Shown: positions 7,154-52,352 of the stretch, in pieces
Layout of the letters: every line of letters begins with the position of its first letter
How positions within the stretch are numbered: position 1 is the stretch's first letter
DNA from: Hyaloraphidium curvatum SAG 235-1
Taxonomy: Eukaryota; Fungi; Monoblepharomycota
Direction of reading: 5' to 3'
Assembly (NCBI GenBank): GCA_025558095.1
Contig: JAIVFI010000007.1
Coordinates: 124,001 to 188,000 of the forward strand
Length of the DNA: 64,000 bases
Made by a program: the position numbers and the translations under genes
The notes under the pieces: model-generated
Told to the model about the DNA's origin: nothing
Seen by the model: the letters and a program-made list of their open reading frames with translations, nothing else
Databases searched by the model: none

Positions 7154-7430
7154 TGTTGTGACTCAGCGCGCCGATAGAAATCCGAGCACCGCGGCGCCCT
7201 CCCGAGCGGTCACGCAAATGCAACGCGGCACGAGGATTCCAAGCTCTCGGGGACGCCGGATCCGTCGGGGTTCCGCAGCACGGATTCGAGGGATCCCCGA
7301 TCGCATTCCCTTTTGGGTGGGTTCGGGAGTAATGAGGGACCGCGGCGCTGCGCCTCGGGCGGCGACGGCAGCTTTTGACTACCCTGTGGTTCGCCTGCCT
7401 GAGTGCCGGCCGCGGACCCGCCGACCCGCG

Positions 7431-8954
7431 ATGCGCTGGCCGGTGGTTGCCCTGATGCTGGCGGTGGCGCTGGCGGGCCGGCCGGGGGCGTGTGCGCCGC
7501 TGGGCGCGGTGCCGACGGGCGGCGGCCCTGCGGCGGGCACTGCTCACCCCGGCCAGCTGGCCCGCCGGACGCCTTCCGACCATTTTTCCCCGGCTAATTC
7601 CGACATTCTGCCCCGCGTGGGGGCGCTCCCGCCGCGGCTGGGCGCGCGCCAGCTGGGCAGCCCGCTGTCGCCCAACATCGCCGGCGGCAGCCCCGTCCGC
7701 AACCCCGCGGCGTACAACGCCTTCCTCGCCGTCGTCCTCTTCGACGGCGCTTTCTACTGCGGCGGCGCGCTCATCGCCCCGAACGTGCTGCTGACCGCCG
7801 GCCACTGCACCTTCGACGGCACCGCGTCGATCGCCCCCTCGCGGCTGCGGGTCGCCACCCACCGGACAAACCTGCTCTACACCACGGCGCAGGAGGGCGG
7901 CAACGAGTACGCCGTGACGCAGGTTCTGCGCAACCCGCGGTTCGAGTGGGACTTTTACGCCGGGCTGTACGCCGACGTCGCGCTGCTCGTGCTGGGGCGG
8001 CGCACCGTGTCGGGCGGCAAGCGCGACGCCGTGGTGGCGTACAATACCAACCCTGCCGTTCCCGCCGTGGGCAGCCGGACGACGGTCGCGGGGTACGGCT
8101 CCGTGGACCGCGGCGGGCCCATCAACGCGGTGCTCTACGAGCTCAACATGACGGTGCTCGCCAACGACGTGTGCGACAGCGCGCACGGGATCACCGTGCG
8201 CGAGAGCGAGATCTGTGCCGGCACGCCCCGCACCAGCACCTGCTCGGGGGATTCCGGGGGCCCGCTGCTGCAGCGCGTCAACGGCACGCTGACGCTCGTC
8301 GGCGCCGTGAGCATGGGGCCGAGCGTGTGCGCAAACCAGGCCGTCGAGTACCCCAACATCTTTTCCCGCGTGAGCTACGTCGCCGACTGGATCCGGAGGG
8401 TCGTTGCCGCGAACGCACCCAGGGCGTGGGTTGAACAACGCCGTCTATCCCCCGCCTTCGTGCTGACTCCTCCACTTTCTTGCAGCCCCGTCGCCACGGG
8501 CACCTTCCTCATCACCGCCCGCCCCGGTGCCCGCCCCAACTACTCGGGCCCCGCGCGCTTCGGGTTCTCCGTCTCGTGCACCGCCCGCGGGCAGCCGTGC
8601 ACCCTCGCTGCCGCCGGCGCCGCGTTCCAGGCCACCGCACCCGCCGGGCCCGGCGCCGCACCGAGCGAGCTAGCGAGCTTCGCGCGCTGCCCCGCCACCG
8701 GGGCGCGGACATGCCTGGCCGTCGGCAGCCTCCGCAACGGCACGCGGATCGTCACCTCGGCCGCATGCACCACCGCATCCACACAGCGGTTCGCACCCGT
8801 CCCGTGGCCGGGCGACGCCGCGGGGCGCTACAGGCTGCGCACGGCGGCGGGGCTGTGCGTGGGCGCGGCGGGTGGGGGCGCGCTGGTGCCCGTGGCGTGC
8901 AACGGGACGGGCGCGCTGCCCTTCTCGTTCGGGAGCGCGGGGAGGGCATGCTGA
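7431..8954 (+). CDS. Secreted S1 (trypsin/chymotrypsin-fold) serine protease with C-terminal ricin-B-like Cys domain
   Basis: Signal peptide MRWPVVALMLAVALAG; IAGG mature start; CGGALI, LTAGHC, ADVAL, TCSGDSGGP; one probable intron near 8425-8484. Confidence 0.9.
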   Translation: MRWPVVALMLAVALAGRPGACAPLGAVPTGGGPAAGTAHPGQLARRTPSDHFSPANSDILPRVGALPPRLGARQLGSPLSPNIAGGSPVRNPAAYNAFLAVVLFDGAFYCGGALIAPNVLLTAGHCTFDGTASIAPSRLRVATHRTNLLYTTAQEGGNEYAVTQVLRNPRFEWDFYAGLYADVALLVLGRRTVSGGKRDAVVAYNTNPAVPAVGSRTTVAGYGSVDRGGPINAVLYELNMTVLANDVCDSAHGITVRESEICAGTPRTSTCSGDSGGPLLQRVNGTLTLVGAVSMGPSVCANQAVEYPNIFSRVSYVADWIRRVVAANAPRAWVEQRRLSPAFVLTPPLSCSPVATGTFLITARPGARPNYSGPARFGFSVSCTARGQPCTLAAAGAAFQATAPAGPGAAPSELASFARCPATGARTCLAVGSLRNGTRIVTSAACTTASTQRFAPVPWPGDAAGRYRLRTAAGLCVGAAGGGALVPVACNGTGALPFSFGSAGRAC

Positions 8955-10670: not shown

Positions 10671-11370
10671 CTTGCCACAGGACACCTCTCACCGTCGACG
10701 TTTTCGGCTCCCCCATGCTGTTGATCGTGGCTGCCGCTGCATGCCGCGGCGTTTGGCTGTGGATATCGAGGTGGGGTCGGCCGGATCTTGGCGGTAGCTC
10801 TGCGGAGGCGTTATGATCGTCATGTGCCCCACAGATTCTCATCAACGATCCTCGATGCGGTCGAAGAAGATCGCAAGTGGACGCGGGAGGCAATGCCGGC
10901 GCGGACGGACGAACGGACCGCTTGCAATTGACGGGCTTCGCAGGTGGGGTGCCTCTGTGCTGGTCGCGGGAAATCCTGCGCGACCAGGCCTCATTGAATC
11001 TCCACAGACGTTCCACGGCGCGAGGAGATCCGAAGCTGAGCGCGGCTCTGGCAGGGGATCGGGCCTGGCGGCAGCTGAGGTGGGCAGGACTGCGGGCCTG
11101 CCCGGTTGACTTCGGATCGGCCTGACGGCTTCCGGAACGGCCTTTTCCCACAGGGCGCTGGTCCTGTTGGCGACGGACGTTGGACGGCGGGGACCACTTG
11201 GAGCAAGCGGAGCGAGTCGGCGCAGAGACGAGTGAGCTACAGCTCGAAGCCATCCGAACGGCTAGGGAACGAATAGGAATAGGTAGGCTCGAATCGTTTG
11301 CACCGCTCGGCTCTAGTGCTGGCCGCCGCCTCCGCCACTTGGGATCGCCCTCCGGGCCGCACTGGGGTCC
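10670..11370 (+). repeat. Diverged repeat of about 700 bp, copy 1
   Basis: Collinear blocks shared with 14995-15718, e.g. AACGATCCTCGATGCG, GACGGGCTTCGCAGGTGGGG, GACCACTTGGAGCAAGCGGA, GAATAGGTAGGCTCGAATCGTTTGCACCGCTC. Confidence 0.9.
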
Positions 11371-14994: not shown

Positions 14995-15718
14995 CTTGCT
15001 CACAGAACGCCTCTCCCGTTCGCCGTTTTCGGCTCTCGGCAAATCGGCACGATCTTTTCTACAGCTAGCTGTATCCCAGGGCACCCCGAAGCCGATCTTG
15101 AGGTGTGGGGTCAGCCGGATCGTGCCGGTGGTTCTGCCCAGACGTGACACCGCAGTTGTTTCGGAACCCCACAGATTCGCAGCAACGATCCTCGATGCGA
15201 TCGAAGAGGCGCCACATGAACGCGAGAGGCATGTGCGCGAGGACGGACGGACAGAGTGGGCGGGAGTCGACGGGCTTCGCAGGTGGGGAGCTTTGGCGCT
15301 GGTCGAGGGGGAACTCCGCGACCATGTAGGCCTAGATGAGGACCGTCCCCACAGATTTTCGACAGCTCGAGGAGATCCCGAAGTTGAACGCGGCTCGGGG
15401 AGGGGATTGGGCCTAGCGGCGACTGTGTGAGAGGTGGGCAGGACTACCGGCATGCATGTCCGGTTCGGATCGGCCTAGCGAATCCTGGAATGATCTTTCC
15501 CCACAGGGCGCTGGTTCCGTCGGCGACGGACCTGCGGAAGCGGTGACCACTTGGAGCAAGCGGACCGAGTCGGCGCGGAGACGAGCGTGCTACAGCTCCT
15601 CGCCCTCCGGACTTCTCGGGAAACGAATAGGTAGGCTCGAATCGTTTGCACCGCTCCATTCTAGTGCTGACCGACGCCTCCGCCATTTGGGATCGCCCTC
15701 CTTGCCGCACTGGGGGCC
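14995..15718 (+). repeat. Diverged repeat of about 700 bp, copy 2
   Basis: Same blocks, order and orientation as 10670-11370. Confidence 0.9.
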
Positions 15719-25996: not shown

Positions 25997-27217
25997 ATGC
26001 CGCAGAACGAGTACATCGAGGAGGCCATCAAGAAGCATGGCCGGCGGCTCGACCACGAGGAGCGGAAGTGGGTAGCGCGGGCTCTACGGTCGGAGGACTT
26101 GGACGCGGGTGCTTGGTGTTGCCTTGAGGAGGCAGGGAGGACGGGATGGCCAGCCCGGGGTTCCCCGCTCTTCGGGCGTCGAAAACGCTCCCCCTGGGGC
26201 ATACTGGAGCCGATGGGCCCGCTCCGGCATCATCGCAGCTGTATGTCAGATGCCACGGTGTTGTTGGAGGCTTTGGAGGGGGGGTCTCGGGGACCTTCTG
26301 GACAGCAGAGGCTGACGACTTCGCTCCGCTCCGCGCAGACGGAAGCGAGAAGCTCGTGAGGGCCACGAACGCTCCGAATATGCCCAAAAGGTGCGGGGCC
26401 TGAAGGCCAAGATCTACAACAAGAAACGGCACACGGAGAAGGTCGAGATGAGGAAAAAGTGGGTCGCTTGCTCTGCTCCCAACGTCGAGCCTTCCTGACG
26501 CTTCGGCACCCAGGATCAAGATGCACGAGGAAAAGAACGTCACGAAGAAGGGCCCGGCGGAACCGCAGGACGGCGCGATCCCGACGTACCTGATGGACCG
26601 CGAGAAGCAGACGCGGGCCAAGGTGCTCTCGAACATGATCAAGCAGAAGCGGAAGGAGAAGGCCGGGAAGTGGAATGTGCCGCTGCCCAAGGTGCGGGCG
26701 GTCGCGGAGGAGGAGGTGTTTAAGGTCATGAAGAGCGGGAAGCGGAAAAGTGGGCATCTTCGGCACGGCTCGGACGGCGTCCCTGACCCCTTCCCCAGCC
26801 AAGCAATGGAAGCGCATTGTCACCAAGCCCACCTTTGTCGGGGAGGGCTTCACCCGGAAGCCGCCAAAGTACGAGCGCTTCATCCGGCCGATGGCGCTGC
26901 GGTACAAGAAGGCGCACGTGACGCACCCGGAGCTCGCCGCCACCTTTTGCCTGCCCATCCTCGGGGTCAAGAAGAACCCCAACAGCCCCATGTACACGCA
27001 GTTGGGCGTGCTGACCAAGGGCACGGTGATCGAAGTCAACGTTTCGGAGCTCGGGCTGGTGACGCAGAGCGGCAAGGTCGTCTGGGGCAAGTACGCTCAG
27101 GCTGGTTTCACTTGCCGGTTTGTTTTGCCCCGTCTTGTTGCTGATTGGCGCTGTCCTCCGCAGATTACGAACAACCCCGAAAACGACGGCTGCGTGAACG
27201 CCGTGCTGCTCGTCTGA
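25997..27217 (+). CDS. NSA2: Ribosome biogenesis protein Nsa2, 4 introns
   Basis: [44 protein letters not shown]|[17 protein letters not shown]. Confidence 0.97.
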
Positions 27218-27576
27218 GCCACTCTGCCACCTCTGCCATCTCTTGGTCATCATGGTTGACTTTATTCGGAGCTTACAATGTAGATGGATACCCGCAATTC
27301 GATTGTTTGGAGTTTCACTCAACCGTCACCCGCTCCGTCCGGCATCGATTGTCGGTCCGCCCTGTTGCAGGAGGCATCCCTGCCGCGGCCGAAGCTCGCG
27401 GACACAACTTTCACCCCCCGAATCAAGCTCACTCAATTGACCGCGCCGGCCCCGCCAGACACCGCGCAGCCATCCGACGCTTCTAGAAGGACGATTCCCG
27501 CGTTCTACTGGGCGCCCGAGGCCCTGCAGGTCGCGCATCGCAGATCCGCCCCCAAGGCCAAACAAAGGACGGCACG

Positions 27577-33160: not shown

Positions 33161-33370
33161 CTCCAAACAAACGTCGAATTGCGGGTATCCATCCACATTT
33201 TGAGCTCGGAAGAAAGCATCCATGAGGACCAAGAGATGGCAGAGGCGGCAGAGTGGTATGGACAAGCAGCACGGTTCCCGCAGCCGTCGGTTTCGCTAGG
33301 CTGCGGAGGAACGCGCCATCAGGATCACGATCAGGCAAGATAGATAGGAAGGTGAAACAGACCTGAGCGT
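33161..33370 (-). pseudogene. Decayed inverted copy of the NSA2 3' end (last intron, last exon, 3' UTR)
   Basis: Reverse complement matches 27093-27312, including CTCTGCCATCTCTTGGTC and GATGGATACCCGCAATTCGA. Confidence 0.9.
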
Positions 33371-35160: not shown

Positions 35161-35699
35161 CGGCTCCAGACGTTTACTAGCATCTGGTCCTGAGCTCCAG
35201 ACCGGGCATCCCTGGCGGGCCGCTGCCTGGGACCCAAGCCGCGAGTGGGGACTTGCAGACCGTGCCAGTATCGTCGCGATATGCCAAGGCCTTGATGCTG
35301 GTGCTGAATCTACTGTAGCTCATCAGCCTGTCACGACAAGGGTAGTGAATCTGCTCGACGTTCTTGCCGACGTAGCGCTGCCCCGCTGCCCTCCTTCACC
35401 CCGATCCCCCGCGTGGGATGATTCTCTTCCGTGTTGAATAGGACGCGCGGAACGACCTCACAATGGTCCAGCGAAAGCAGTTCTTGAGCTCTGGAGCATG
35501 TTGCGGTTCGGGCACTCGGTCGCGGGTGTGGCCCCCTGGGGGATGTTGGACGGGGCAATAGGTGCTGTGGTGGCAAGGAGGCGGTGCGCGGGGGAGCACG
35601 CCCGGCGCAGCACAACATCCCTCACCTCGCTGCACATTGGTGGGCAGCTTTGGCCGTGTTCAGGTCGTCCTTGGCTGACTTCTTTGCCGCGACCCATGA

Positions 35700-36473
35700 A
35701 TGACGATGGAAGCCACATGGTCGATCCGTCGGACATCGCGCTCCCAACCAGCGGGACACCCATCCCTCATGAGGGTAGCTGCGACCGGTTCCGGATTGAA
35801 GGTCCTGCGGAGCGCTCGGAGCAACGTCTGCGAGCTCTCGATGAGGGCCCGCACCAGGCGATCGGGAGGTGGGGTGCGGATGCGACTACCCCGCAATCCC
35901 CGGAAGAACCGGTCAGGTGTCCGATGTACCACCTCTGCAACTACGAGGCAAGCGCGACCGAGCAGTCTGTCTCCGCTTCGATTGACCGCCTGTCGGCAGG
36001 GAACCCCCGAGGCCGTCGCACGCCATCGGAGCGACGCGCAGCTCCATCTCGACCTCGCGCTTTCGCTGCTGAGCTCCCGAGAGCGGATGCTTGTTGCCCT
36101 GGAGCTCCAGAGGGTCAACTTGGAGTCGGTCAATCGGGCTCTTTCGGCCCGCACCAGGGACGAGACGATTGAGCCGGCGGCGCCCCAAGCCACCCCAGCC
36201 CCGCCGGCGGTTCGCCACCGGCTGGACGACCTTCGGGACAACCGCAGGTCCATGAGCCGGCCCGAACGCGCTTTGGACGTCTCGTTCGGCGTCTTCCTCG
36301 CCTCCTTGGCGGTGTTTGTCATCTCTTGGTTCCTCCCAAAGAGCGAAGCCAGCAACTGGATCCTGATCGGGCTGGCCATCTTGCTCGTGATCGAGATCGT
36401 GGCCATATTCTTCCTGCACCAGGCCGTTGAGCGCTCGAGGCTGCGGCGCCAGACCCAAGTGCTGCCCCGTTAG
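35700..36473 (+). CDS. Hypothetical protein with two C-terminal TM helices (paralog A)
   Basis: VSFGVFLASLAVFVISWFL and WILIGLAILLVIEIVAIFFL; 5' region similar to 36667-36853. Confidence 0.55.
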   Translation: MTMEATWSIRRTSRSQPAGHPSLMRVAATGSGLKVLRSARSNVCELSMRARTRRSGGGVRMRLPRNPRKNRSGVRCTTSATTRQARPSSLSPLRLTACRQGTPEAVARHRSDAQLHLDLALSLLSSRERMLVALELQRVNLESVNRALSARTRDETIEPAAPQATPAPPAVRHRLDDLRDNRRSMSRPERALDVSFGVFLASLAVFVISWFLPKSEASNWILIGLAILLVIEIVAIFFLHQAVERSRLRRQTQVLPR

Positions 36474-36787
36474 GGCGGGAGGAGCGTGTAGACTTCGGCA
36501 GCGTCTGAGCGAAATGAAAGCAGGTACATGTACGCGCGAATCGATTAGGCAACGAGCGGATTGATCTAGTTGTGAGCACGAAAAGCATGTCGCGGCTCGG
36601 GCAGCCCGTTCGTGGATGTGATCCCAAGGGGACGGCGAAAAGGGAAAGGGACGAGCAGTGTGTGAGGCAGTGCGCGGGGGAGCACGCACGTGCACCTCCT
36701 GCACTATATACGTGTACAGCCGTTGTTCACTTGGCAAGCGGCCAATCTGTCCTTCTGTTACCTCTCTTGCGCCGGGCGATGAGCGGA

Positions 36788-37197
36788 TGGGGAAGCCACA
36801 TGGCGGACCCGCCGGACCCCGCGTACCCAACCAGCGGGACGCCCATCCCTCACGCTGAAGGCAATCGGGCTCACGAACGAGAACGCGGAGCTCCTGGACA
36901 AGACTGCGCGGCTCGTGGAGAAGGAGATCGTTTTCGTGAAGCGCGAAACGGAGCTGCTCGGGACGATCGGAGACCTCAGGACCGAGCGCCTGGCCGACGT
37001 CCGCCGCGAGGGACGTGGCGCGGCTCGCCGTCGAGCGCAACGAGGCCTACGTCAGGCGCAAGGAGGCCCACGTCGAGCGCAACGAGGCCCAGGAGGCGCA
37101 GATCCGGCTTCTGAAGGAGCTGAACAGATGGTACTGGGCGGCATGCCTGGCCATCTGGGCGGCGGTTTTCGCGCTCGTCTACTGGAGGTTCTGCTAG
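36788..37197 (+). pseudogene. Coiled-coil tail-anchored protein (paralog B), frameshifted
   Basis: Coiled coil then WYWAACLAIWAAVFALVYW; frame breaks near 36790 and 37010. Confidence 0.5.
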
Positions 37198-40105: not shown

Positions 40106-41245
40106 ATGCTTCGCTTGTCGAGGAGGGTGGCCAATCCCGCGTTCCGCCAACTCCGCCGCTACGGAATGGCCGTCCGCACGCCGCTCACCGGCGCGAACGC
40201 GTCGCGCGAGGTCGACACGGTGCCCGCGGGGGTGGATCCGACAGGGCGGTTCTCGGTTCGCGCCGAACTCTACCGCCTCCACCGCCCGACGTACCCCGGG
40301 GAGCAGATCCTGCCGATGCTCGTGCAAGAATGCGCGCTCGGGGACGCGATCGCGTCGGGATCGGGGCCCGTCGCGGTCGCGGATGTTGGCTCGGGAACCG
40401 GAATCTCGACCAAGCTTTTCCTCACATCGCCGTCGATGAAGGAGGCGCTAGAAGGGGCAGGCCGGAGCATGATTGTCTACGGCGTGGAGCCGAACGCGCC
40501 GATGAGACAAGGCGCCGAGGAGGACTTGCGAGAGCACGAGGTGCCCGCGGACGGGAGCGCGCTCGAGGTCGGACATGTCTACTTCAAGAGCATTGACGGA
40601 TCGGCGGAACAAACGGGTCTGCCGGACAGCAGCATCGACATGATTGTTGCTTTTCAGGTCTGACCCCTCTTGTGTCGACCGCCGGCGGAGCCATTGCTGA
40701 CTTCTCGCCATTTCTCCCTTCGGAACCGCTCCTTCCAGGCCGGTCACTGGTTCGAATCGCAGCAGACCATCGCCGAATTCCGCCGCATCCTCCGCCGCGG
40801 CTCCGGCAAGCCCAACCTTGCCCTGGCCTGGAACACCCGCCCCCCGCCCGACCCCGCCTCGGAATCCGAGGTCCTCGGCATGCAGATCCACGAGCGCCAC
40901 CGCATGCACGACGCCGGCGGGGCACAGGCTTCGAGTGCCGAGCGGCACACCCGGATCGCCAACGCGCTGTTCGGACCGCCGCCGGCCGGGGGCAAGCCGA
41001 CCTACGAGGTCAGGACGTTCCCGCACGCGCTGCCGTTCACGCTCGAGGGGGTCAAGGGGTTCTGGCACTCGATTTCGTTCATGCCGCAGGCGGGCACGGA
41101 GGCGGGCGACGCGCTGGATGCGGAACTTGGGCGGTTGTTCGATATGGTCGTGGCGGAGCAGAAGAAGCCAGAGAACGAGGGCAAGGACCGGGACCAGGTC
41201 GTGGACCTGAAATTCGAGACTTATGTATTCTTCGGTGTGATCTGA
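40106..41245 (+). CDS. Class I SAM-dependent methyltransferase, possible mitochondrial presequence
   Basis: RFS..AELY..HRPTYP, VADVGSGTG, GVEPNAPM, GSAEQTGLPDSSID; intron 40658-40738; Arg-rich N-terminus. Confidence 0.85.
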
Positions 41246-41525
41246 AGGGATCTGCCGATGAGATAGTTTGGTTTGCCGGTGGTTGTGATCGTAACGAATG
41301 ACAAACGCTGTGTCAGCGGTGCAGCGTGTCCTGCGTCCTGCAGCCCTTTCCGCCCGCTGCAATGCAGAGGCTGCAGGACTGCAGCGAACGCGGAAACAAC
41401 ATTCCAAAGATGCTGCACAGGAGCACGCAGTCGGGATATAAGCGGCTCGGCCCCCCGGGGCGGCTCCCAGCACCAGCGACTCGGCCAACGCTCGACCAGC
41501 TTCGCTCCCTCCCACCCGCCCCGCG

Positions 41526-44500
41526 ATGAAGCACGCCTTCGCCGCCGCCCTCGCGGCCCTCCTGCTGGTCCTTGCGACCCTCTCCCCGGCCCGCGCGGCC
41601 CCCGTCGACGACGCCCGGCTGCTCGAGAAGCGCGCCCCCGCCATCCCGATCGACCAGATCAAGATCCTCGACGTTTCGTACGGAGGCACGGGCTGTCCTG
41701 CTGGGTCGGCGGCTTGGACCATTTCGGAGGACAAGACGGCGCTCACGGTGATCTACGACAACTTCATCGCGAGCGCCGGCCAGAACGTCTCGTACACCGA
41801 GTGGGTCTCACAACAACCCGGCGCTCCCGACGTGCATTCGCTGACCCTGATTGATCGTCTGCAGGAACCGCAAATTCTGTCAGCTCTCCGTCAAGATGAA
41901 GTTCCCTCAGGGCCTCACCTTCAGCCTCCACGAGCTCATCGCCCGCGGCAGCGTCCAGCTCGACGATGGCACCTGGGGCAAGCACCAGAGCCTGTGGTAC
42001 TTCAGCGGCGAGCGCAGGCAGGCTGTGTACGCGTCATCGCCCGCCCACCGACCTAGACATAGACCCGATACCCCCATTCTCCTGTCGTCTCGCCCCGGTC
42101 TCTGACGTGGTGCTGCACTCCTGGCAGCCCCGTCCTCAATCAGGCCCGACGGTTCGTCGGCCTGACAGAAGCCAGCCATGGCCCGATGTAGCCTAGCTGG
42201 CCGTTGACTGAAAGGCATGTATAGAGGACAGAGATCCCGGCTACATCGCTGCGCTGCCCCGCATGTTCGGATGGTCCGGCATCTTGTTTTCCGAAACAAT
42301 GAACGCGGGCGCGTGTCGGTCTCTTTCCCTGAAATCGTCGTACTCCTCCTCCTCAACATAGCTTCGGTACTGCGCAAGCTGCCGCTTGTCGGCCTCTGAA
42401 CATGTGTGCGAAAGGGCCGAAAGTGGGATCGCCGCGCAGTCTGGGCATTTACGGAGTCCGAGGACAAGGAGCTTCCCGACATCGCACTCGGCGCGATCTT
42501 GGACGTCATGGGCTCCGGCAAGGTGGCCCATGAGGTCGCCCAGATCGCGGAGGGCCGCATCGCATCCAGGAGCCGGGCACGCGAGGCCATCGCCAGGGGC
42601 GTTTGCGGCAGCCGGCGGAGATCTCGACGCGTGCGACGCAGCCCACGTGATGAAGATCACCGGTTCAGCGGCAGGGAAAGCGGGATTCTGGGGCTGTTGG
42701 CTTGCCATGGCAGGCGACGTGCCGGAGAAGCCGACAAGCGACTGCCTTGATGACTCGGCATTTACTCAAAGGGCACAGCTGAAACAAGAGTCGTACAGCT
42801 GAAAGAAGAGATCGTACACTATGGAACTCAAGCCTTCTTGGGTTTCTTGGCCGCCCTTTCCTCCTCCTTCCGCTTCTTCTTCTCCTCCTTCTCCCGCTCC
42901 TTCTCCTTGGCCTTGCGCTTCCTCTCCTCCTCCTTCAGCCTCTTCTCCTCCTCCCTCTCCCTCTTCTTGTCCTCCTTCTCCCGCTCCTTCTCCTCCTTCT
43001 TGGCCTCCCTGGCCGCCTTCCGGGCCTGCGCGGCCTCCTTGTCGGCCTGCTCCTGTAAAACCGCCAGTCAAGGCTCGCAGCTTGCGGCGAAGCAAGTCAC
43101 ACTGACCTTCAGCAGGATCTCCGCGACGATCCTCTGGGCCTCGGTGATCTGCTCCACCGGCGACATGTTGAAAAAGGTCTCCACCGCGGCGTTGTCGCCG
43201 CGGTAGTCGACGCCGTAGTACGTGAAACTTCCCTGCAGCACAGATGTCATGGTGGTGAACACAGCACGGAAGGACGAACGTACGGTCGCGAAGAACTCCT
43301 CTACAAGAGGGGCGAAGTCCTTCCCGATCCCGTCGACATCCATGGCGCGGCCGGGGAGGAGCTGGCCTTTGTAGTTGAGGAGGCCCCGCGCCGCGGCCTT
43401 GCAGGCCCCGAGGCGCTTCCTGATGGCTCCATGGCGGTCATGCGCCAGGTGGGCCGCGAACATGCGCCGCCCCATCTCGAGGAACGCGGCGTGGGCGCCG
43501 TACTACTGCGTGTATTCCCCGTAGAACTGGTGCGTGCGGGTCGTCAAGGACCCTGCATCTGCTTTTGCGGCACATTCTCACGGTGGCCATGTTGTGTTGG
43601 ACGGGAAGGCGAACGGTGCGTTGAGTTTTCCGATGGAATGGGTGTCGGTGACGGTGCGTGCGTGTGACTCGCTCCTCCCGCTCCATTCAAATCGTCCGCT
43701 CAAATCGGGCCCACAGAGCAAACCACGGTCGCAATGGCCCACCACGGGCTGCGGAAGATCACCGAGGAAGACATGCCGACCAGTCTCCGTGTGCCGGACA
43801 CCGTCTGGGTGGGCCGCTCGCCAGCTCCGGAAACCCGGTCGTTGACAGTCCATTCCCCGATTTTGAACGCCAAGGAGGCTGGTCGGGCGGGAGCACCGGA
43901 GATGCGATGTATGGGCACGACCAAGGACGAGTACAAGTTCTGCCCGAGCGAAGGGGACGTTGTCCTGGTACGTTGGCGCTCCCATGCGTCGGGAGAGCCA
44001 GGTCCTGACGTGCTCACAGCCCGGCACGGTCCTCCTCGGACACGGATACACGGATACCGGCGGCGCGTATCACTTCGACGGTCGGGAGCTTGCGTGCGTC
44101 CCGCCCGCCGTCGTCGTTATGCTACCCAGGGACCCCGCGCGGCTCATCGGATTCACCAACCTATCGGCGGAGGCGCGTATCTACCTGCGTTTGCGCTGGC
44201 GCGCTTTCCTGCTGACCGCGCTTTCTTCCCTCAGGCCCAGGCGAGGGTGAGGCGCCTCTGCGAAAGGCGTGAGAACCCCGATTTCAGGTCCACGCACCGC
44301 GCATACCTGACCGGGCAGGACAACGACGATGAGGAACTCGATGCGTAGCTACGGATTTGGAACGTTTAATTGCGCGCAGTAGCATAGGACGTGGTCTTAC
44401 TTCCTTAGAACGTGCAATGTCTAGGCCGATCATCCGCTTGTCGGGGGTTTGGCCGCGAGGTAGGTCGTGATTTGGTTGCACATGTCGACAAACTCGTTCT

Positions 44501-47500
44501 CGAACACCGCGTTTAGGGGTGGTTTCGGCAGCTTAGCTTCGGGGAACTTGCTTAGGAGATGCGCGGGCGGCGGGGTGAGGTCCTGGGCGAGGTGAGGCCA
44601 CACCTCCGTGATCATGTTCCGACTCTGACAGCAAAAATCCGATTGCCATGACTTCACCGACACTCTCAATTGACGAGCTGATCTCGGTGCACGGCTGACC
44701 TTTTTCAAGTCCCTGAGGAGAATGGCGTGAGCAACGGCCAATAAAGGCGGCCGAAAGGGGGCCACCATTTGGGGTCGTGACGGCAATGTAGTCGAGACTG
44801 GGCTCGAGAACAGTCTTCTTGGTCGTTCTGTGCCGGGCACAACCGGGGAGCGCGCGACGCTGAATTGCACGATTCTGTACCACACGGCGTCGGGTGCTGG
44901 TAGATTGATTACTGTTGTTGACCGCGTACCTCCGCGCACGCGCTACCGCTCTACCGCTCCGTCATTCTGAGTCTCCGATCGGCGCAATGACGAGCTCTTT
45001 TTCTATCGAATCGCGGCGTGGTCGTGTCGACCGGGACGAGACCATCGCTCCGCTCGAAACTTGTGGGTGACGGTACGTCGGGCCTCGTACGCGCGCTGAG
45101 TCCCCGACAGTAGCTACGCATACATCTACAGTTCGTCAACCCTGCCGAATCATCCACCCGCCTACACCATGCTCCTCGTTCATTCGCCTAACGAAGGCGG
45201 CAAACTCGTCCGTGTTGGTGTTGTAAGCGCGGTTGCGCCAGTTCACGGCCGCGATCGGGTCCGACAAAGCGGGAGCCGGAAAAGAACCCGAAACGAGGAT
45301 CGGCGGCGGCACAAAAACCCGCTCTCGACCCGTGGTACGAGCTGGGCGAGGCAGCGGGTTCATCGGCGGGCTGTTGGTGAGGAACACCTCGAACTCGGCA
45401 GCCGTCATCTCCTCCTCCTCGTCGATGGGGGCGGGCGCGCCTTCCGACCCCCAGAAGATGCCGTCGTCCCCTTTTCCGGCCGCGGCCGGCGGCCCATCGT
45501 TGCCATCATCGCTCGTGCCGACGGGAGCCGCCGCTTCCAGGGCGCCACGCCGCCGTCGCTGCCGCTCCTTCCACCCTGGCTTCTTCTTCCCCACTCGGCC
45601 CTTCCCTCGGGGCATCCCCCGGGATCTCTTCCGCGGCGAAGCATGCACAGGGTCAGGAATCTGCAAGGCCGGCCGGCGAGGATCTCCCAGCAGAAAAGGG
45701 ACGGGAGGCGGTGTGGGAGGAGTCGCGAGCCGGGGAGATGGCGAGGCGGGAGGCGACAGCGGAAATGGCGCCATGGGGTTGGGGAAAGACGCGGGAACGA
45801 AGTTGCCGTTGTTCATCGAAATGGGGGCGCGTTGCTGTCGCGGCGCGGTTGCGTGTCTGCGGCCCGCTGTCCGCGCGTGATGGACCGCTGACGTGGACGA
45901 CCTTGCACCCCAGCATTCGGCGACCCGCACGCCGTCCGGACAAGAGCGGCACCATGTCGAAGCGCAGGCGTGGGAAGGAGGCCGAGCCGGTGCCCAAGGC
46001 GACGGACGGAGCTGCGGACGACGAGGACAAGGAGGCCAAATCTGCGGAAGCCCCGCCTGCAAAACGGTACGTGCCAAATGGAGGAAAGCCGGCCTCTGCG
46101 GGCCCGGTCCGATTCAGCTGCGGGATGTTCTCGGAACTCCCTGCGCGGAAAGGGTCGGGTTTGCGGCGGTTTGGCGGGGTCGGAGGGCCGAGTCGAGCCA
46201 GCGCCGATGCGCGGGGCCCGGGAGCGGAGAGACCGGCGGACCGGCCGGTCGAAGAAGCCCTTCCAACGGGCGATGTGAAGCAGGCGATTGGTGGTCTCTG
46301 CACGCCATACATACTGGCCGTTGCCGCCCATGTGAACGCGTGCTGCGTTCGGGACCAGGATGGAGCATGAGCGGCACGGATTAGGGCCCGAGCCGTGGCA
46401 ACCAATCAGCCGTGGAATGCATCTGGGCTGATGTAGAAGGTCGGGCTAACGGAACCTTCTTGCCAGGAGGGCCACGAGGAGTGCGGCCGCGTTGCACCCC
46501 GAGGATCCAAACCTTCAGCCCACCACGGCGAAGCTGCCGCCTGAAAAAGCTCAGCCGAGAGTCAATAAAGGTCCGTGCGCCTTTCCTGCCTGCGATTTCG
46601 ACACAGAGTACTTCGTGGTGCGCGAGTTTCCCGCCGATGAGGGAGAACCACCGGCGCGTGTCCAATTATGCGAACGCCACTGGCACAACGTGCAGACCAT
46701 CCAAAAACGCGACGGTCTTGTTTTATCGTTCAAGAAAACATTGGCAGCTATCGACAGGAAGAACGCGGCACGTCGTCCCAACACCGGCTGTGGGGTTACG
46801 GACCGGCACGGAGTTCCCTGCCACAACTTCGGGTACGTTCTACCAACCTTTCTCGCATTTTTTTTGGGGGCTAAGTGCATACCACAGGAAACCTGGCCAT
46901 AATGAAGGCTGGGACGAAGCCAGCGCGATCATGCGATGCGCTTCGTGCCGGTTGGCAGACAGAAGACCAGGCGGGGATTTTGCTTTCCAGGACCGCCTGC
47001 CGCAGCACCGCGAAGTCATTTGCATCGTGTGCAAGAGCCCGTGTGGAGGGCAAACGGGCATTCGACGTGTTACCCCGGAACTAGTCGTTCTGATTGCAAA
47101 GGCACGCCCAGGCGAGGTTGTCCCGCCTGATGCGGTGGCCTGCCAAACGTGCTACAGTAGGGCACAAAACGGAAAGCCGTTGAATCCGTGGAAGCAGAGG
47201 CGAGGCAAGGATTGGTCTGGCCCCATTCAAAATGCCAGGCCACGTCCGGATTCCAGCAAGCGTCCCGCAACCTTCGCAAAGCAACCCGGTTGTTCTTCGG
47301 TGTTTCTCCTAACACATCTCTTCGGCCTCATGGATTCCAAGGACTGGTACAACAACACCCTGGAGATGCAGAAAGCAGTCCTCGGCTTGAAGGACAGACA
47401 CATCGTCTTCATGGGACGAGAGGACGACGAGGACAATGGTTCGGGCCAGCGGCACGCGTTCCTAGATGTCCGCGGCGTGACGCCGGCTGCCCATCAAGCT

Positions 47501-50248
47501 GCCCATCAGCAAGCCAAACCGCTCTCACAAAAGCAGTCGCGCATCCTGGAAGGCGAAGAACTGCTGGAGCTCATGCGTCAGAGAGTGCCGCCGCATTCCG
47601 TCGTGGACTCGCCCGACCCACCTGCGCCGCTCGATGCCGGCGTCACCCTGCCCGATCACATGCGAAATATGCTCGTCGCCGTGAGCGAGCGTTACCCGCA
47701 ACCGGCCGCGCAGAAGGACGAGAAGCAGGGGGAGACACCTCGCGACATCCGGGCCGCGCAGCGTTCTGCGAGAAGATCCAGACTGGGAGACCACGGTGCC
47801 GCATCGCCGCCGCCCACGTGCAGTGGAACCTCGGACCTCGAAGTCGAGGAGCTTGCGATGCGCGGCGACGAGAGCTCCGGCCGCCAGGATCGCGCAGCCG
47901 GGGTTGCAGAGGAAGCTGAGCGCGCGGAACCGGAACCCGCCGCCGCCCTCGCTCACGAGCTCAGGTCGGCGGCCGCGGCGGCAGCAGGGCCTGGGCCTGG
48001 GCATGGGCGCTCCGAAATCGAGTCGGAAGATCCGAAGGTCCCGGGGGCCGAAGTGATCGAGGTGGATGTCGGACTCGAGGTCGACATGGCCGAGGAGGAC
48101 CCGGCGCCGGCACCTGCACCTGGGGGGCGCGTGAAGGGGAAGCGCAAGATCACGGACGACGAGGTGGCCCCGGAGATTCAGGAGCAGAAGAGGCTCGCCG
48201 ACGAGGAGTATGCCTGGGAGGTTCACGCTGATCTGGAGAAGTCCGAAAGACGCCGGCACCAGGAAGCGCTTGACCGGGAGATCGCCCGTGGAATGGAGGA
48301 GGAGGACATTGCGCGCGTGGTCGCCGGTCTCGTTTCTGACCACGGCGCGGACGACGCGGACATGGACAAGGACGGATCGACTGTGGCGATTCTGGGTTCC
48401 CGCGCGGACAACGACATCGGTGCCGAGGACGAGCATGCTCGGGATTCTGGCGTGGATTCGGACGGATCGGACGGAACGGACGATTGGCTTTCGGAGCCGG
48501 AGTCCGAGGCAGAGCCAGATATTGGGGACGGCGGAGACCAGGCTGCCACGGAGGGCGCAGCCAGCTCCGCTGCGGCGGAGCTTGGGAGCGGACCCAGAAA
48601 GACGGACGGCGCCGCGAGCTCGGCCTCGGCCTCCGTTCCCGCGGCCGCGGAAGTCCTCACAAAGCTGACCGCAGACCGGCTTCTGCGCACGTGGGGGAGC
48701 CCAATTGCGCCGAAGGTGGAGGTTTCGCGAGCCACGGTCTTCGTGGACCAAGCCACGTGGGACGAGGCCGCAGCCAACCGCCGCATCGTGGGCCTCCATA
48801 TGACCAATGAGGACGGCAAGAACGGTATCGACTCGAGTGGCTTCTTAAAGGCTCTCTTTCTGCGGCTGCGTGCGGACTACGGATGCCCTCCGGGTTCGTG
48901 CCTGTTGTGCCATTATGGTCGGCGAATCTCACGACCGAGCACCTCCAGGTATAGCTGCCCTATTCATCTTTGCTCTCCTCACGCACTTGGCGCTGGACGT
49001 GCCCCTGTCCGAAGGTGTCAAGTTCGCAGTGGGCAAAGCCATCCGCCACCGGGAGGCGCTCCCGGACAAGCTGTACGGGTACATTGTGGCCGACCCCCGG
49101 GGCGTGATCACCCCCGAAACCCTCATCTACGGCAAACACTACACGTTTTGCGCTGCCCCTCCGAGGAGGGCCGAGGAGGGTTCCACCGGCATCGAGGCCG
49201 CTGCAAATGTTCTTGCTTCCGTCGCTCACGGCCGGACCGTCCGTGTCGAGGAGATGCACGCAAGCCCCATCATCAGGATAACATCGGCTCATCCGCTCGT
49301 ACGGTATTTGGAGGTCAACAGCCCGGAAAAGGTGCGGGACGTGAAGCAAAAGTACCTTGGGCTTGCCGAGGAACAGGAGCTGCCTCCGTCGCTGGCCCCT
49401 GAGCTTGAGATCTACGCCAGGATCGGTATGGCGTGGTACTCTTGTTCCGTATGGCACTGCTGATCTTACTATCAATCAGAACTGACGCTAACCTGGGTGG
49501 ACGAACAACACAAGAGAGATTTTCGCGATTGGTATGTTGACATCTCGCGGCACCATCGGGACAAGTATCTGCGGACGAACGCCGATTCGATGGGGAGACG
49601 CCGTAGGGCCAACCGGATTGAGAAGAGGCACATGCAGCGGATGCAGCAACTGGCGGAGCAATCCAAGGCATCTTGAAGAGCACTTTGGTCTATGTGTTCC
49701 ACGTGCGCGAGGTCTGGAAGGTGATTGTGGCGGTCCAGGCCGCCTGTACATAGTCTTGCTCCTAATCTCGTCGATTCAGGCTATTCCGGCAGTTGTGCAT
49801 TCGTTGACATTGGTGCGCAGCGCATTTCTGTGACATGATTCCGTGACATGCTTCAATGTCAGCTGTGCTGACCCCTGGACTATAAAAACAGCGCAAAATG
49901 TAGTTCGGATCGTGTTAAATCGTACCAGAAGTCGTCGTAACTCCCTGATAACGCACCGTTCGGAATCAGACTCTCCGAGTCCGATTCCGTGACCGGCGTC
50001 CCTTCTGAGAAGACTCTCCGAACTCGCACAGCAACCACTTCAACGACGACTACCTGCTCACCAACACGCTCGCCGACGTCGATCTCGTCTGGTGCCCGTG
50101 CGGGGCGAACCGCGACCTCCAGATCAAGCAGTCGGTGCAGGTTTCCAACGCCGGCAGCCCGACCAAGCAGGCCATCGTGATGGTGGACTCGACGGACTTG
50201 AAGTCGACGACTACATTCCGCCTGCAGTGGAAGTGGTGCCAGGCGTGA
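41526..50248 (+). CDS. Secreted DUF4360 protein, split by an 8-kb intervening segment (exons 41526-41799, 41865-42026, 50032-50248)
   Basis: Signal peptide; YGGTGCPAGS, RKFCQL, RGSVQLD, YFSG; in-frame terminal exon NHFNDDYLLTNT..WCPCG..VDSTD..LQWKWC. Confidence 0.85.
42241..42708 (-). CDS. Small zinc-finger protein (C2H2-like plus CxxC..H.C) within the insertion
   Basis: CPAPGC..L..LMGHLAGAH; CPDC.....SHTC. Confidence 0.6.
   Translation of the reverse strand: MASQQPQNPAFPAAEPVIFITWAASHASRSPPAAANAPGDGLACPAPGCDAALRDLGDLMGHLAGAHDVQDRAECDVGKLLVLGLRKCPDCAAIPLSALSHTCSEADKRQLAQYRSYVEEEEYDDFRERDRHAPAFIVSENKMPDHPNMRGSAAM
42828..43590 (-). pseudogene. Orphan with Lys/Glu/Arg-rich charged C-terminal helix; in-frame TAG near 43505
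   Basis: Intron about 43052-43106 joins AEILLK to EQADKEAAQARK...KKPKKA*; upstream frame FYGEYTQ*YGAHAAFLEM. Confidence 0.55.
43734..44348 (+). CDS. Orphan protein with two probable introns, within the insertion
   Basis: gtacgt...ctgac..cacag intron (about 43968-44019) joins GDVVL to PGTVLLGHGY; second acceptor ccctcag near 44234. Confidence 0.5.
   Translation: MAHHGLRKITEEDMPTSLRVPDTVWVGRSPAPETRSLTVHSPILNAKEAGRAGAPEMRCMGTTKDEYKFCPSEGDVVLVRWRSHASGEPGPDVLTARHGPPRTRIHGYRRRVSLRRSGACVRPARRRRYATQGPRAAHRIHQPIGGGAYLPAFALARFPADRAFFPQAQARVRRLCERRENPDFRSTHRAYLTGQDNDDEELDA
44430..45816 (-). CDS. Orphan Pro-rich/basic (NLS-like) protein; exon structure unresolved
   Basis: MNNGNFVPASFPNP..., RGKGRVGKKKPGWKERQRRRR; downstream open frame 44430-44770. 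Confidence 0.4.
45954..49676 (+). CDS. Large (about 1000 aa) multi-zinc-finger orphan protein within the insertion; frameshift near 48895
   Basis: MSKRRR start; introns with gtacgt/gtatgg donors; CAFPAC..CERH, CGV..CHN..CASC, CIVC..CQTCY; acidic linker; last exon ELTLTW...QSKAS*. Confidence 0.6.
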
Positions 50249-50349
50249 GCCTCCAGGGGACGCGAGATGTAGAAGTGCAGAACTTGAATTGAAGCTTTCA
50301 ATGATTGCTACAGCAAACTGGTGCTCGCCGTTGTCCGTGCCCGAAGATA

Positions 50350-51297
50350 CTATTCGCAGCGCCTCTGAGGTCCGTCAAGATCAGCAATCGCCGCGTGTTC
50401 GGTGGCGATCGGACGCACCCATTGCAAATGGAACACCTGCTTGACGCTCAGGTCCGAGCTGTCAACCGACAGCAGCCCTTGCGTGCCCTCGGGAGCGGTC
50501 ACCTCGGCTTCGTGCGTCACGAGCAGGTCCTTGCCGGCGGGCGAGCAGGGACTCGCCACTCGTTCGTGGGCCGGGAACGCCCGGGATCTACAAGGGTTGG
50601 TCAGCGAGCGGTCGCCCTATGCCAAATGGTGTTGACGCACTGCACGTAGTTCCTGTCCGCCGGACCGCGAAAACGCGCCTCCGAGCGAGCGCGGCGGGGT
50701 GAGTCAGAGAAGCCCATGGAGGTGGAAAGGCGAGCTTGGGCACTGCGATCGAGCTACGAAACCACAATCAGGAGTTGATCAATCGCGATCCGAGTGCTCG
50801 TACCGAGACAAAGCCTCTGGTATCGAGCTTGATCACGGTGAACGTGAAGCCGGGAGGGAACTCCAAGCCGATGTCGAGGTCGCAGGCTTTCCGGGCTCTG
50901 GAGGCAGAAGCGGCTCAGATCCTGCCAATCAAGATCGATGCGAATGAGATGTACTCCAAAACATCGATTCCGGGTCCCGCCGAAGAAACGAACGCCGAGT
51001 AGAGCACTGCCGCGTGCCACAGCGTCAATCGTCGGCCCTTGCTTCCGGGCAGCGAGAAAGGCGCAAACCTGTCAAGGCAAGCTTATCCTCGCTCAAGGAG
51101 ACAGTTGCCCTTCCCATAGGGCAACCGCTCCCTCCGTAGGTCGCGCCGGTGAGCCGCACACTGCCCGAGTCAAGGCGAGGAGGCGGCGCCCGTCCTGCGA
51201 GACCATGGTCACCGAGTTCCCCGGCAGGAGCCGCAGCGACGACGGCAAGGGCAAGCAGGACAAATGCGCAAAGAGCGGGCAGGATTCGTCCGGACAT
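50350..51297 (-). CDS. Second secreted DUF4360 protein, intact, 5 introns
   Basis: Signal peptide; YGGSGCP, ARKACDL, RGFVS|LD, FRGP, SPC, VDSSD, LQW|RRCE*. Confidence 0.85.
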
Positions 51298-51420
51298 CTC
51301 GGCGCTGGTGCCCTGTTGCTTGCGTGTTTGAGTGCGGTGACTCGTCGGTCGCGGAGCGGCCGGCCCAGGAACAGGCTTTCCACTCTCTCGTACACGCCGG
51401 TTTCGGTCTCCAGACCGTCG

Positions 51421-52352
51421 ATGCCCAAGAGCGCGAAAGTCAGAAAGACCACCGACGGAGGAAAAGGCGCGGACGCGAGCCTGACCGCGTCGGCGCCGCG
51501 CAACGAGGACGAGGAGCACACCGCTGCATTCGGCATTCACGATGTTCCCCCTGAGATACTCCGGAGAATCGCGCAGTTTCTTCTCGAGGAGCCCTTTCCT
51601 CGCGACTACGCCGAGCTCAGCGACTATCTGCTCGCGAAGGCCGTTCCTGCCCGGAGTCTACTTCACCTGGCCCACGCGTCGCCGGCAATCTGGCACACCC
51701 TTCGGAAGAGCCTTGCGCAGCTGGCACCGCTGTGACTCTACATTGGTGCGCGAACGGACACTGACTCTAGCTTTCGCTGCGGAAGTCTGATCCCGTTCCC
51801 CCGCCGCTGCCTTCCTTGCTAGATTCGCGCGGAGCGCTACCTTCCGCGGTAGGACGTCTGGTTCGACGCATATGGAATCATGAGGCCCTGCTTCTACGAC
51901 GAAGTAGCTGAAGAGCGGGACGAGTCGCTGAAGGACCTCCCCAGGCCGGCCTAAGCACTTTATTGGAGCATTCTTCCAAGTCGGACAAGAGCTCACCCAC
52001 GGCGAATGTGAAGCGCACGATCGAGGAGCTATCTGATCGCTGGCGGTCGTCCGATCCGTGCTTCTGCTGCTCTTGGAAGCTCGTTACCTCCAGCGGCACC
52101 GAGCTTTGCCAAGTGTGCGGCACTTACCTCTGCGCACCGCCTCTGGGTTACTGCGCCGAGCTCCCCGTGATGTGCCAAGGCAATTGCTCCACTCACGGTT
52201 GCGCCGCCTGCTGCATAGAGGAGGACCTTGTCTGGCGGGATGATTGGGAGGACACGGTCCTGTGCGTCAAGTCTGTTCCTCGCGAGTAGTAGTACGACAC
52301 CGATGAGGTGTTGGAGGACATTGCGAGGGATCCCGATTGCCAGCAGATGTGA
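51421..52352 (+). pseudogene. F-box-like gene with Cys-rich C-terminus and several in-frame stops
   Basis: IHDVPPEILRRIAQFL; TAG/TAG/TAA in 51810-51955, TAGTAG at 52287; CQVC/CxxxC clusters. Confidence 0.55.

What the first reader, a model, noticed from the sequence alone, without database searches (positions are those of the whole stretch)
42027..50031. An 8-kb multi-gene island inside an intron of a DUF4360 gene: candidate novel cargo element
Seen: exon 2 ends ...YFSGERRQAV at a GTACGC donor (42027). The missing C-terminus (NHFNDDY...LQWKWCQA*) follows a CACAG acceptor at 50031, and the direct join is in frame. Other introns here are mostly under 100 nt. The 8005-nt gap is visibly less GC-rich and packs about five orphan genes in alternating orientation with their own introns: small Zn finger, charged-helix protein, unknown, Pro/basic protein, large multi-Zn-finger protein. 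I see no DDE, tyrosine recombinase, RT, helicase or capsid motif. Inference: a mobile or virus-like element of an unrecognised class, or a non-autonomous derivative, inserted in an intron and either spliced out or inactivating the host gene. The intact paralog next door could compensate.
Basis: partly seen in the sequence, partly recalled or inferred. Interest (0 to 1): 0.85.

Follow-up and report, generated by a model that had tools for sequence, protein, structure and literature searches.

The report
Orphan-gene mobile island breaking fungal gene
An 8-kb block of tightly packed predicted genes with no known relatives splits a gene of the early-branching fungus Hyaloraphidium curvatum, and a near-identical copy of the block's left end sits beside different DNA in sequencing data, so it is likely a recently moved, gene-carrying mobile element of no recognised family that likely broke the gene rather than being spliced out.

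Summary
The split gene and the island are real. Both DUF4360 halves match Pfam, and a raw-data contig bridges the right junction with no differences. "Inside an intron" is not supported. The 42027 donor has a canonical acceptor 101 nt away, which the public annotation uses. The direct join is 6 residues short of two homologs, and 7 host codons are missing at the site. One contig shows 42023-42238 again (1 difference in 216 nt) beside a different flank, so the left end exists twice. The right end has subterminal repeats; there is no clear target duplication. One island gene has a diverged paralog under purifying selection (p=0.0018). No transposase, recombinase, helicase or viral protein was found, and a Mutator-profile test was negative. 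Best reading: a young gene-carrying DNA element, probably mobilised in trans, that inactivated the gene (0.55). Main rival: a chunk copied from a larger donor during break repair (0.25). The scan had no look-alike on other DNA.

The parts
41526..41800 (+). Host DUF4360 gene, exon 1 (hydrophobic N-terminus, signal peptide judged by eye)
   Evidence: Pfam PF14273 profile 1-51; P0001
41865..42022 (+). Host DUF4360 exon 2, host-derived part (ends in the first base of the Ala codon of ERRQA)
   Evidence: Pfam profile 51-104; the match in P0001 stops at residue 145 = profile 103
42023..42027 (+). Left terminus CTGTG; the identity with the second copy begins here
   Evidence: X1 contig 1 matches 42023-42238 with 101 other letters before it; inverted repeat with 50027-50031
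42027..42127 (+). 101-nt intron-like segment (GTACGC donor, CTGAC branch, CAG acceptor) inside the duplicated unit
   Evidence: used by annotated P0001; no RNA data
42128..42191 (+). Short terminal exon (20 codons to a stop) giving a truncated 166-aa chimeric host protein; may be the end of a truncated island gene
   Evidence: no better fit to DUF4360 than random island sequence (80 of 500 as good)
42241..42708 (-). gA: 155-aa single-exon protein with a C2H2-like and a CxxC zinc-finger motif
   Evidence: weak sub-threshold Pfam hits FOXP-CC E=1.6e-4 and zf-tcix E=0.007
42830..43590 (-). gB: about 209 aa, ending in a Glu/Lys-rich charged helix; two predicted introns
   Evidence: open with the 79-nt first intron; an in-frame stop with the 55-nt alternative; no family
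43734..44348 (+). gC: about 150-aa orphan with at least one canonical intron (43968-44019); 3' end uncertain
   Evidence: no significant family
44430..44960 (-). gD2: orphan coding tail (5' structure unresolved) with a diverged paralog elsewhere
   Evidence: X1 contig 3: 17 other letters and 3 gaps over 44421-44606; 11 of the 15 listed substitutions at third codon positions, p=0.0018
45136..45816 (-). gD1: 226-aa Pro-rich, basic then acidic ORF; may be joined to gD2
   Evidence: no family
45954..49676 (+). gE: about 1,050-aa protein: N-terminal Cys/His clusters, about 450-aa low-complexity middle, about 300-aa C-terminal domain; best candidate for an enzyme, unassigned
   Evidence: partly annotated as P0003, fused to the host tail; no real homolog
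49822..50031 (+). Right subterminal region: two 11-bp direct-repeat pairs, a TATAAA at 49881, and the terminal CACAG (50027-50031)
   Evidence: (1 of 304 tiled 210-nt windows has two such pairs)
50032..50248 (+). Host DUF4360 distal exon (NHFNDDY to the stop), stranded
   Evidence: Pfam profile 113-178, E=1.5e-11; junction bridged by X1 contig 49885-50164 with 0 differences
50350..51297 (-). Intact DUF4360 paralog, 223 aa, five predicted introns (not part of the island)

Best explanation
The 8,009-bp block 42023-50031 is likely a young gene-carrying DNA transposable element, bounded by a 5-bp inverted repeat, that likely inserted into a coding exon of the DUF4360 gene, where about seven host codons are missing, and likely inactivated it. 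Shown: the split gene; the inverted ends; the right-end repeats; the 7-codon gap; a second, 99.5% identical left end beside another flank; a diverged paralog of one internal gene. Inferred: cut-and-paste (DDE-type) movement, with the enzyme binding the short ends and subterminal repeats. The enzyme is supplied in trans, or by gE if it is a transposase too diverged to detect. The target duplication and about 20-22 nt of host were lost by a deletion at or after insertion. Transcripts from the host promoter would most likely splice from 42027 to the near acceptor 42127 and stop after 20 foreign codons (166 aa), leaving the distal exon stranded.
For: Second left end with a different flank, starting at 42023 (contig 1: 216 nt, 1 difference). 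The boundary set by that contig and the one set by the Pfam resumption coincide with a 5-bp inverted repeat; chance 0.0016 for fixed ends and 0.018 with 5 nt of slack on the right. Two 11-bp repeat pairs lie in the last 209 nt, a pattern seen in 1 of 304 tiles. A 7-residue filler aligns gap-free with both the paralog and P0002. The right junction is bridged by raw-data contigs. Genes are packed 49-175 nt apart. GC3 is 0.60-0.87 in correctly framed island exons against 0.92-0.94 in the host halves. The gD2 paralog is under purifying selection. The public annotation uses the near acceptor.
Against: The second copy rests on one contig of depth 5.5 in a run holding 22% of the stretch's words; no second right end was listed (3 loose ends and 6 pieces not shown). 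No X1 contig shown covers this copy's own left junction. With generous slack a 5-bp inverted repeat is common (0.12-0.20). No target-site duplication beyond an optional 2-bp GC. No transposase detected. gE has no second annotated copy of similar length. Low GC3 is not unique to the island: the paralog has 0.71 and two orphan ORFs outside have 0.76 and 0.81. The other flank can be read as the continuation of a gene into the 101-nt intron, which favours the donor-chunk rival.
Confidence: 0.55

Rival explanations
1. Templated insertion or segmental duplication. An 8-kb piece of a longer donor (ordinary chromosome or a larger element) was copied into a double-strand break in exon 2, with loss of about 20 nt and short microhomology. 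The 101-nt intron and the 20-codon exon are the 3' end of a donor gene cut by the breakpoint, and the inverted repeat is chance.
For: The 30 visible letters of the other flank contain a branch-point-like word and an AG 12 nt before the donor, and are also open in the frame of the short exon (read by eye). The short exon ends 49 nt from gA, as tightly as other island gene pairs. Host deletion and no target duplication. No mobilising enzyme found. Error-prone break repair with large insertions is reported in fungi (PMC9684475 and PMC9779921; search listing and abstract starts only).
Against: The inverted repeat falls exactly on independently defined ends, and the right end has subterminal repeats. 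A 99% identical donor should give second annotated copies of island proteins; P0003 is a cluster of 1 member on 1 contig and one search found no other.
Confidence: 0.25
2. The 101-nt intron and the next 11 codons are the host's own, and the element starts at about 42162 inside exon 3, leaving an in-frame empty site with a 1-2 bp C or GC overlap. The second locus would then be a derivative that carried 139 nt of host flank.
For: Canonical intron signals. An in-frame empty-site model exists. The 11 codons end in F-x-G like the paralog's FRG; such a motif arose in 11 of 500 random island stretches.
Against: The alignment needs two extra gaps (5 residues too long), and the score gain is not better than null (80 of 500). 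The Pfam match of P0001 stops before these codons. The second copy's breakpoint is at 42023, not 42162.
Confidence: 0.1
3. The whole block is removed as one 8,005-nt intron using the element's own end signals (a giant introner), giving a protein 6 residues short that still works.
For: The direct join is in frame. A strong donor lies 4 nt inside the left end, with CAG at the exact right end and a CTGAG word 27 nt upstream. Both host halves are free of stops. Introners that carry both splice sites and leave a few bases behind are described (PMC9860276, passages).
Against: The nine other introns examined are 46-81 nt, a canonical acceptor competes at 101 nt, and internal convergent genes lie in between. 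Reported introner family medians are 30-654 nt. The join deletes the conserved stretch before the DY motif. Intact halves are expected anyway for a recent insertion.
Confidence: 0.06
4. Assembly misjoin, or halves from different DUF4360 copies; or a fragment of an endogenous virus.
For: This copy's left junction is not covered by any X1 contig shown. X1 may be the source sample and so not independent. The genes are dense orphans.
Against: The right junction is bridged with 147 and 133 nt on either side and 0 differences. The halves are complementary and non-overlapping on the profile. No PHROG or viral-contig relatives. The genes have host-type spliceosomal introns.
Confidence: 0.04

Closest known systems
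Non-autonomous gene-carrying TIR elements (Pack-MULEs; enlarged multi-ORF En/Spm-CACTA elements of Chondrus crispus; PMC6431247, passages)
   Same: Several ORFs between inverted ends; no recognisable transposase needed in cis; subterminal repeats near an end (CACTA trait, recalled).
   Different: The inverted repeat is only 5 bp and runs CTGTG…CACAG, the reverse of CAC…GTG ends (recalled). No 8-11-bp target duplication. The cargo looks like whole intron-containing orphan genes, not fragments of recognisable host genes.
Starships (PMC9156397, passages)
   Same: Fungal element carrying several whole accessory genes.
   Different: No DUF3435 captain at either end; 8 kb against 77-195 kb for the four elements in that paper; that study found them in Pezizomycotina only.
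Introners (PMC9860276 and PMC12130899, passages)
   Same: Exonic insertion whose ends offer a donor and an acceptor, with an in-frame splice-out and a few element bases left in the exon; lower GC than host exons.
   Different: More than ten times the largest reported family median length (654 nt); carries genes; host codons were lost; no evidence of splicing or of five or more copies.
Templated insertions at double-strand breaks (PMC9684475, PMC9779921; listing and abstract starts only)
   Same: Deletion at the site, no target duplication, no enzyme gene, near-identical sequence elsewhere.
   Different: Would not predict inverted ends or subterminal repeats; the donor is not yet seen.

Membership tests
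Starship | DUF3435 tyrosine recombinase as the first gene (PMC9156397) | tested here: not met
   No such Pfam hit in the island ORFs and exons scanned
Starship | Flanking direct repeat or target duplication | tested here: not met
   Only an optional 2-bp GC overlap
MULE / Pack-MULE | DDE transposase of the Mutator family | tested here: not met
   No PF10551 hit. Against a 16-sequence IS256 profile the gE C-domain scored -3.0, with 315 of 500 shuffles as high; hhalign probability 0.27. A non-autonomous member would also lack it.
MULE / Pack-MULE | 8-11-bp target duplication and TIRs of 14-500 bp (PMC6446971) | tested here: not met
   5-bp inverted repeat and no such duplication; a deletion at the site could have removed one, and non-TIR MULEs exist
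CACTA / CMC | Termini CAC…GTG (recalled) | tested here: not met
   Ends read CTGTG…CACAG, the reverse orientation
CACTA / CMC | Subterminal repeats and a 2-3-bp target duplication (recalled) | tested here: inconclusive
   Repeats at the right end only; GC overlap possible, but the implied empty site is out of frame
Introner | Removed from mRNA by splicing | not testable with these tools
   No RNA holder listed
Introner | Multi-copy family (5 or more) of short elements, median 30-654 nt | tested here: not met
   8 kb long; only one further left end seen; copy number not countable without the genome
Helitron | 5' TC, 3' hairpin plus CTRR, insertion between A and T, RepHel gene (recalled) | tested here: not met
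   Ends and flanks do not fit on either strand; only weak hairpins; no Pfam hit
LTR retrotransposon or derivative | Long direct terminal repeats | tested here: not met
   No direct match longer than 8 bp between the end regions compared; none in the window self-BLAST
Crypton / DUF3504 elements | Tyrosine recombinase domain (PMC13465315, abstract) | tested here: not met
   No Pfam hit; folds too poor to test by structure
Polinton-like or other endogenous virus | Capsid, packaging ATPase, polymerase or integrase genes (recalled) | tested here: not met
   No PHROG hit below E 0.008 among 10 ORFs; no credible viral-contig relative for 4 exons
Templated insertion at a break | Deletion at the site without target duplication | tested here: met
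   7 codons missing
Templated insertion at a break | Contiguous donor that extends beyond both breakpoints | not testable with these tools
   No genome held; only 30 of 101 flank letters visible

The most novel reading that the evidence does not exclude
A new family of compact, autonomous, multi-gene DNA transposons in Monoblepharidomycota. It has 5-bp CTGTG/CACAG ends, six intron-bearing accessory genes, and gE as a zinc-finger DDE transposase beyond the reach of current profiles. By eye gE shows an Asp, an Asp, a CxxH-like word 20 residues later and a W…W…TN word in Mutator order (motifs recalled), and hhalign's best local match fell on the IS256 catalytic-Glu motif, though no better than shuffles. 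Its ends double as splice sites, so whole-element splicing could soften exonic insertions: an 8-kb gene-carrying introner.
Probability: 0.15. Interest if true: 0.8.

Novelty: new variant of a known kind. Interest (0 to 1): 0.5.

Why it matters
Chytrid-grade fungi are reported to hold very few DNA transposons (PMC5751038, passages; five taxa listed, not this one), and Starships were found only in Pezizomycotina in the defining study. A recently active element that moves six whole orphan genes in a monoblepharid fungus would extend cargo-carrying mobility to an early fungal branch. It would also offer a source for this genome's many orphan genes. If gE is the enzyme, it is a transposase that Pfam, a search of 1.84 billion representatives (one exon) and a language-model atlas all miss. 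One BLASTN against the public assembly and one RT-PCR would settle most of it. If the donor-chunk rival holds, it is an ordinary repair accident.

Tried and rejected
No whole genome is held, so copy number could not be counted. No RNA holder was listed; this is no evidence on expression or splicing.

My first reading, that the insertion lies in a host exon 3 at 42162, lost support; it is kept as a 0.10 rival.

gE C-domain: the representative search with one exon (158 aa) gave itself and a bacterial Ig-repeat protein that is a repeat artefact. The ESM Atlas best score was 0.88, with a PARP/DarT cluster at 0.87 (PF00644 in 38% of members; lead only). Single-sequence folds had pLDDT 39 and 41. 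Foldseek on the second gave nothing at E<=0.001. The VIA wide search was not run. PDB sequence searches were blank. A GIY-YIG resemblance seen by eye got no Pfam support. The Mutator profile test was negative.

gE zinc-finger exon: atlas best 0.85 to unnamed animal proteins, and 0.75 to a cluster with RAG1_imp_bd in 32% of members; lead only.

A search for an annotated protein sharing the short terminal exon found only P0001 among 12 candidates; weak. Exact look-ups of four single-exon guesses were not in the collection. A metagenome scan for the left 20-mer gave one bacterial contig matching only those 20 bases: chance. Viral contigs: none for three exons and a 20-residue match for one, rejected. 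Prokaryote genomes: none. Rfam: none in 41000-52000. The other flank is not elsewhere in the window. Uncovered parts of the island in X1 and X2 are not evidence.

Literature searches listed no paper on this element or on H. curvatum transposons. Subscription papers and supplements were not seen, including the introner and ploidy tables.

Full report
Source and observation. The window is from Hyaloraphidium curvatum: two window proteins are identical to NCBI models of that species on an 890,790-base contig. Pfam DUF4360 matches exon 1 (profile 1-51), exon 2 (51-104) and the distal exon (113-178), so the halves are complementary. An intact 223-aa paralog lies next door. A contig from run X1 spans the right junction, 49885-50164, with no differences; X1 may be the source sample.

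The island is not in a host intron. The 42027 donor has a CTGAC branch point and a CAG acceptor 101 nt downstream. The public model P0001 uses it and stops 20 codons later. Nine other introns I picked are 46-81 nt and 8 of them have a CTRAY branch point; the 50031 acceptor has only CTGAG. Against the paralog and Clydaea P0002, the direct join leaves 6 gaps, while a 7-residue filler between ERRQA and NHFND aligns without gaps to both. About 20-22 nt of host coding sequence are therefore missing at the site.

Where the ends are. I first took the 11 codons after the short intron as host exon 3. They end in F-x-G like the paralog, a motif seen in 11 of 500 random island stretches. But their alignment gain is matched by 80 of 500, and the Pfam match of P0001 stops before them. 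The decisive datum is X1 contig 1: 216 nt match 42023-42238 with one difference, and its first 101 nt are another flank, absent from the window. The left end therefore exists at a second place and begins at 42023. The block then reads CTGTG…CACAG, a 5-bp inverted repeat (6 bp in this copy). Its chance is 0.0016 for fixed ends, 0.018 with 5 nt of slack on the right, and 0.12-0.20 with generous slack. The last 209 nt hold two 11-bp direct-repeat pairs, seen in 1 of 304 tiles of the window. There is no target duplication beyond an optional GC, and no LTR.

Limits of that evidence. laid 14 contigs and showed 8; it showed 6 of 9 loose ends. The second copy is one contig of depth 5.5. No second right end was listed, and no contig shown covers this copy's own left junction. 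The run holds 22% of the stretch's words, so gaps mean nothing.

Contents. Six predicted coding units lie 49-175 nt apart: gA (zinc fingers), gB (charged helix), gC, gD2, gD1 and gE (about 1,050 aa). Several have host-type introns. Correctly framed island exons have GC3 0.60-0.87 against 0.92-0.94 for the host halves (two mis-framed rows there are ignored), but the paralog (0.71) and two outside orphans (0.76, 0.81) are also low. gD2 has a paralog about 90% identical: 11 of 15 listed substitutions fall at third positions, p=0.0018. It is thus a real gene of a small family. Orphans are common in this window: most of 145 long ORFs outside the island, many of them wrong-frame shadows, had no Pfam hit. 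Orphan status alone says little.

Search for an enzyme. Pfam, PHROGs, PDB sequences, viral contigs and prokaryote genomes gave nothing significant. One gE exon searched against 1.84 billion representatives found only itself and a repeat artefact; paralogs over 50% identical would be hidden there. Folds were low-confidence and uninformative. Atlas hits were all under 0.9. By eye the gE C-domain has acidic and Cys/Trp/Thr-Asn words in Mutator order (motifs recalled). A profile of 16 IS256-family proteins (kept from 21 distinct ORFs out of 30 loci) scored it no better than shuffles, 315 of 500 as high. hhalign placed a 17-column match on the catalytic-Glu motif at probability 0.27, which 10 or more of 30 shuffles exceed. 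This is a lead, not support.

Mechanism. Most likely (0.55) a young gene-carrying DNA element, moved by a cut-and-paste enzyme in trans or by an unrecognised gE, inserted in exon 2. A small deletion removed the target duplication and 7 codons, and splicing to the near acceptor truncates the host protein. The movement, the enzyme and the splicing outcome are inferred. The main rival (0.25) is a chunk copied from a longer donor during break repair: the other flank can be read as a gene running into the 101-nt intron, and no second annotated gE exists. A search for such a donor gene found only P0001 among 12 candidates. Boundary at 42162 (0.10), whole-block splicing (0.06) and misjoin or virus (0.04) follow.

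Comparison. It works like a non-autonomous gene-carrying TIR element but fails the membership tests for Starship (no DUF3435; PMC9156397 passages), MULE (no DDE match, no 8-11-bp duplication; PMC6446971 passages), CACTA, Helitron and viral elements (features recalled), LTR derivatives, Cryptons (PMC13465315 abstract) and introners (size; PMC9860276 and PMC12130899 passages). PMC5751038 (passages) reports very few DNA transposons in five chytrid-grade genomes. PMC9457484 (passages) extends diploidy to Monoblepharidomycota without giving this species' state in the main text. Searches listed no paper on this element; supplements and subscription papers were not seen. Earlier scan notes held no look-alike. 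One note reports a Gypsy element with accessory genes in this genome, and another a templated-insertion patchwork in a different fungus; both are unchecked leads.

Verdict. A real, recent, gene-breaking insertion with direct though thin evidence of a second copy, and no assignable family. New variant of a known kind; interest 0.5. The boldest reading, an autonomous new transposon family whose ends double as splice sites, has probability 0.15 and would merit 0.8.

Noticed in passing
window 51712-51840: Short high-copy repeat: many X1 and X2 contigs with loose ends on both sides and summed depth 36 in that bin; it lies in or beside a small orphan ORF.
   Followed up: no
window 27093-27312 and 33161-33370: Inverted 220-nt repeat pair, 77% identical; further short pairs 26677-26714/33418-33455 and 28860-28932/35282-35356. 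Possibly dispersed non-coding elements or an old inversion.
   Followed up: partly
window 10771-11370 and 15105-15718: Direct duplicate of about 620 nt, 75.5% identical; no Pfam hit for the long ORFs overlapping it.
   Followed up: no
window 35495-35769 and 36584-36852: Two small orphan genes share upstream and start-region sequence (71-85% identity over 113 and 62 nt), suggesting a local duplication.
   Followed up: no
window 47327-50248: The public model DFJ74DRAFT_703427 (P0003) fuses the island's large gene to the stranded DUF4360 exon, and 703423 (P0001) is the truncated 5' half. Both are probably annotation artefacts of the insertion.
   Followed up: yes
window 49881: A TATAAA 150 nt inside the right end points outward at the stranded DUF4360 exon; it could drive a transcript of the gene's tail.
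   Followed up: no
window 4275-4961: A long aldo-keto reductase exon is 44-51% identical to many bacterial proteins; fungal relatives were not compared, so transfer is not implied.
   Followed up: no
window 6381-8951: A long ORF carries a trypsin domain and lies just downstream of an FAD-binding ORF.
   Followed up: no
window 50350-51297: The intact DUF4360 paralog has low GC3 (0.71) against 0.92-0.94 for the broken copy, which argues against simple equivalence of the two.
   Followed up: partly
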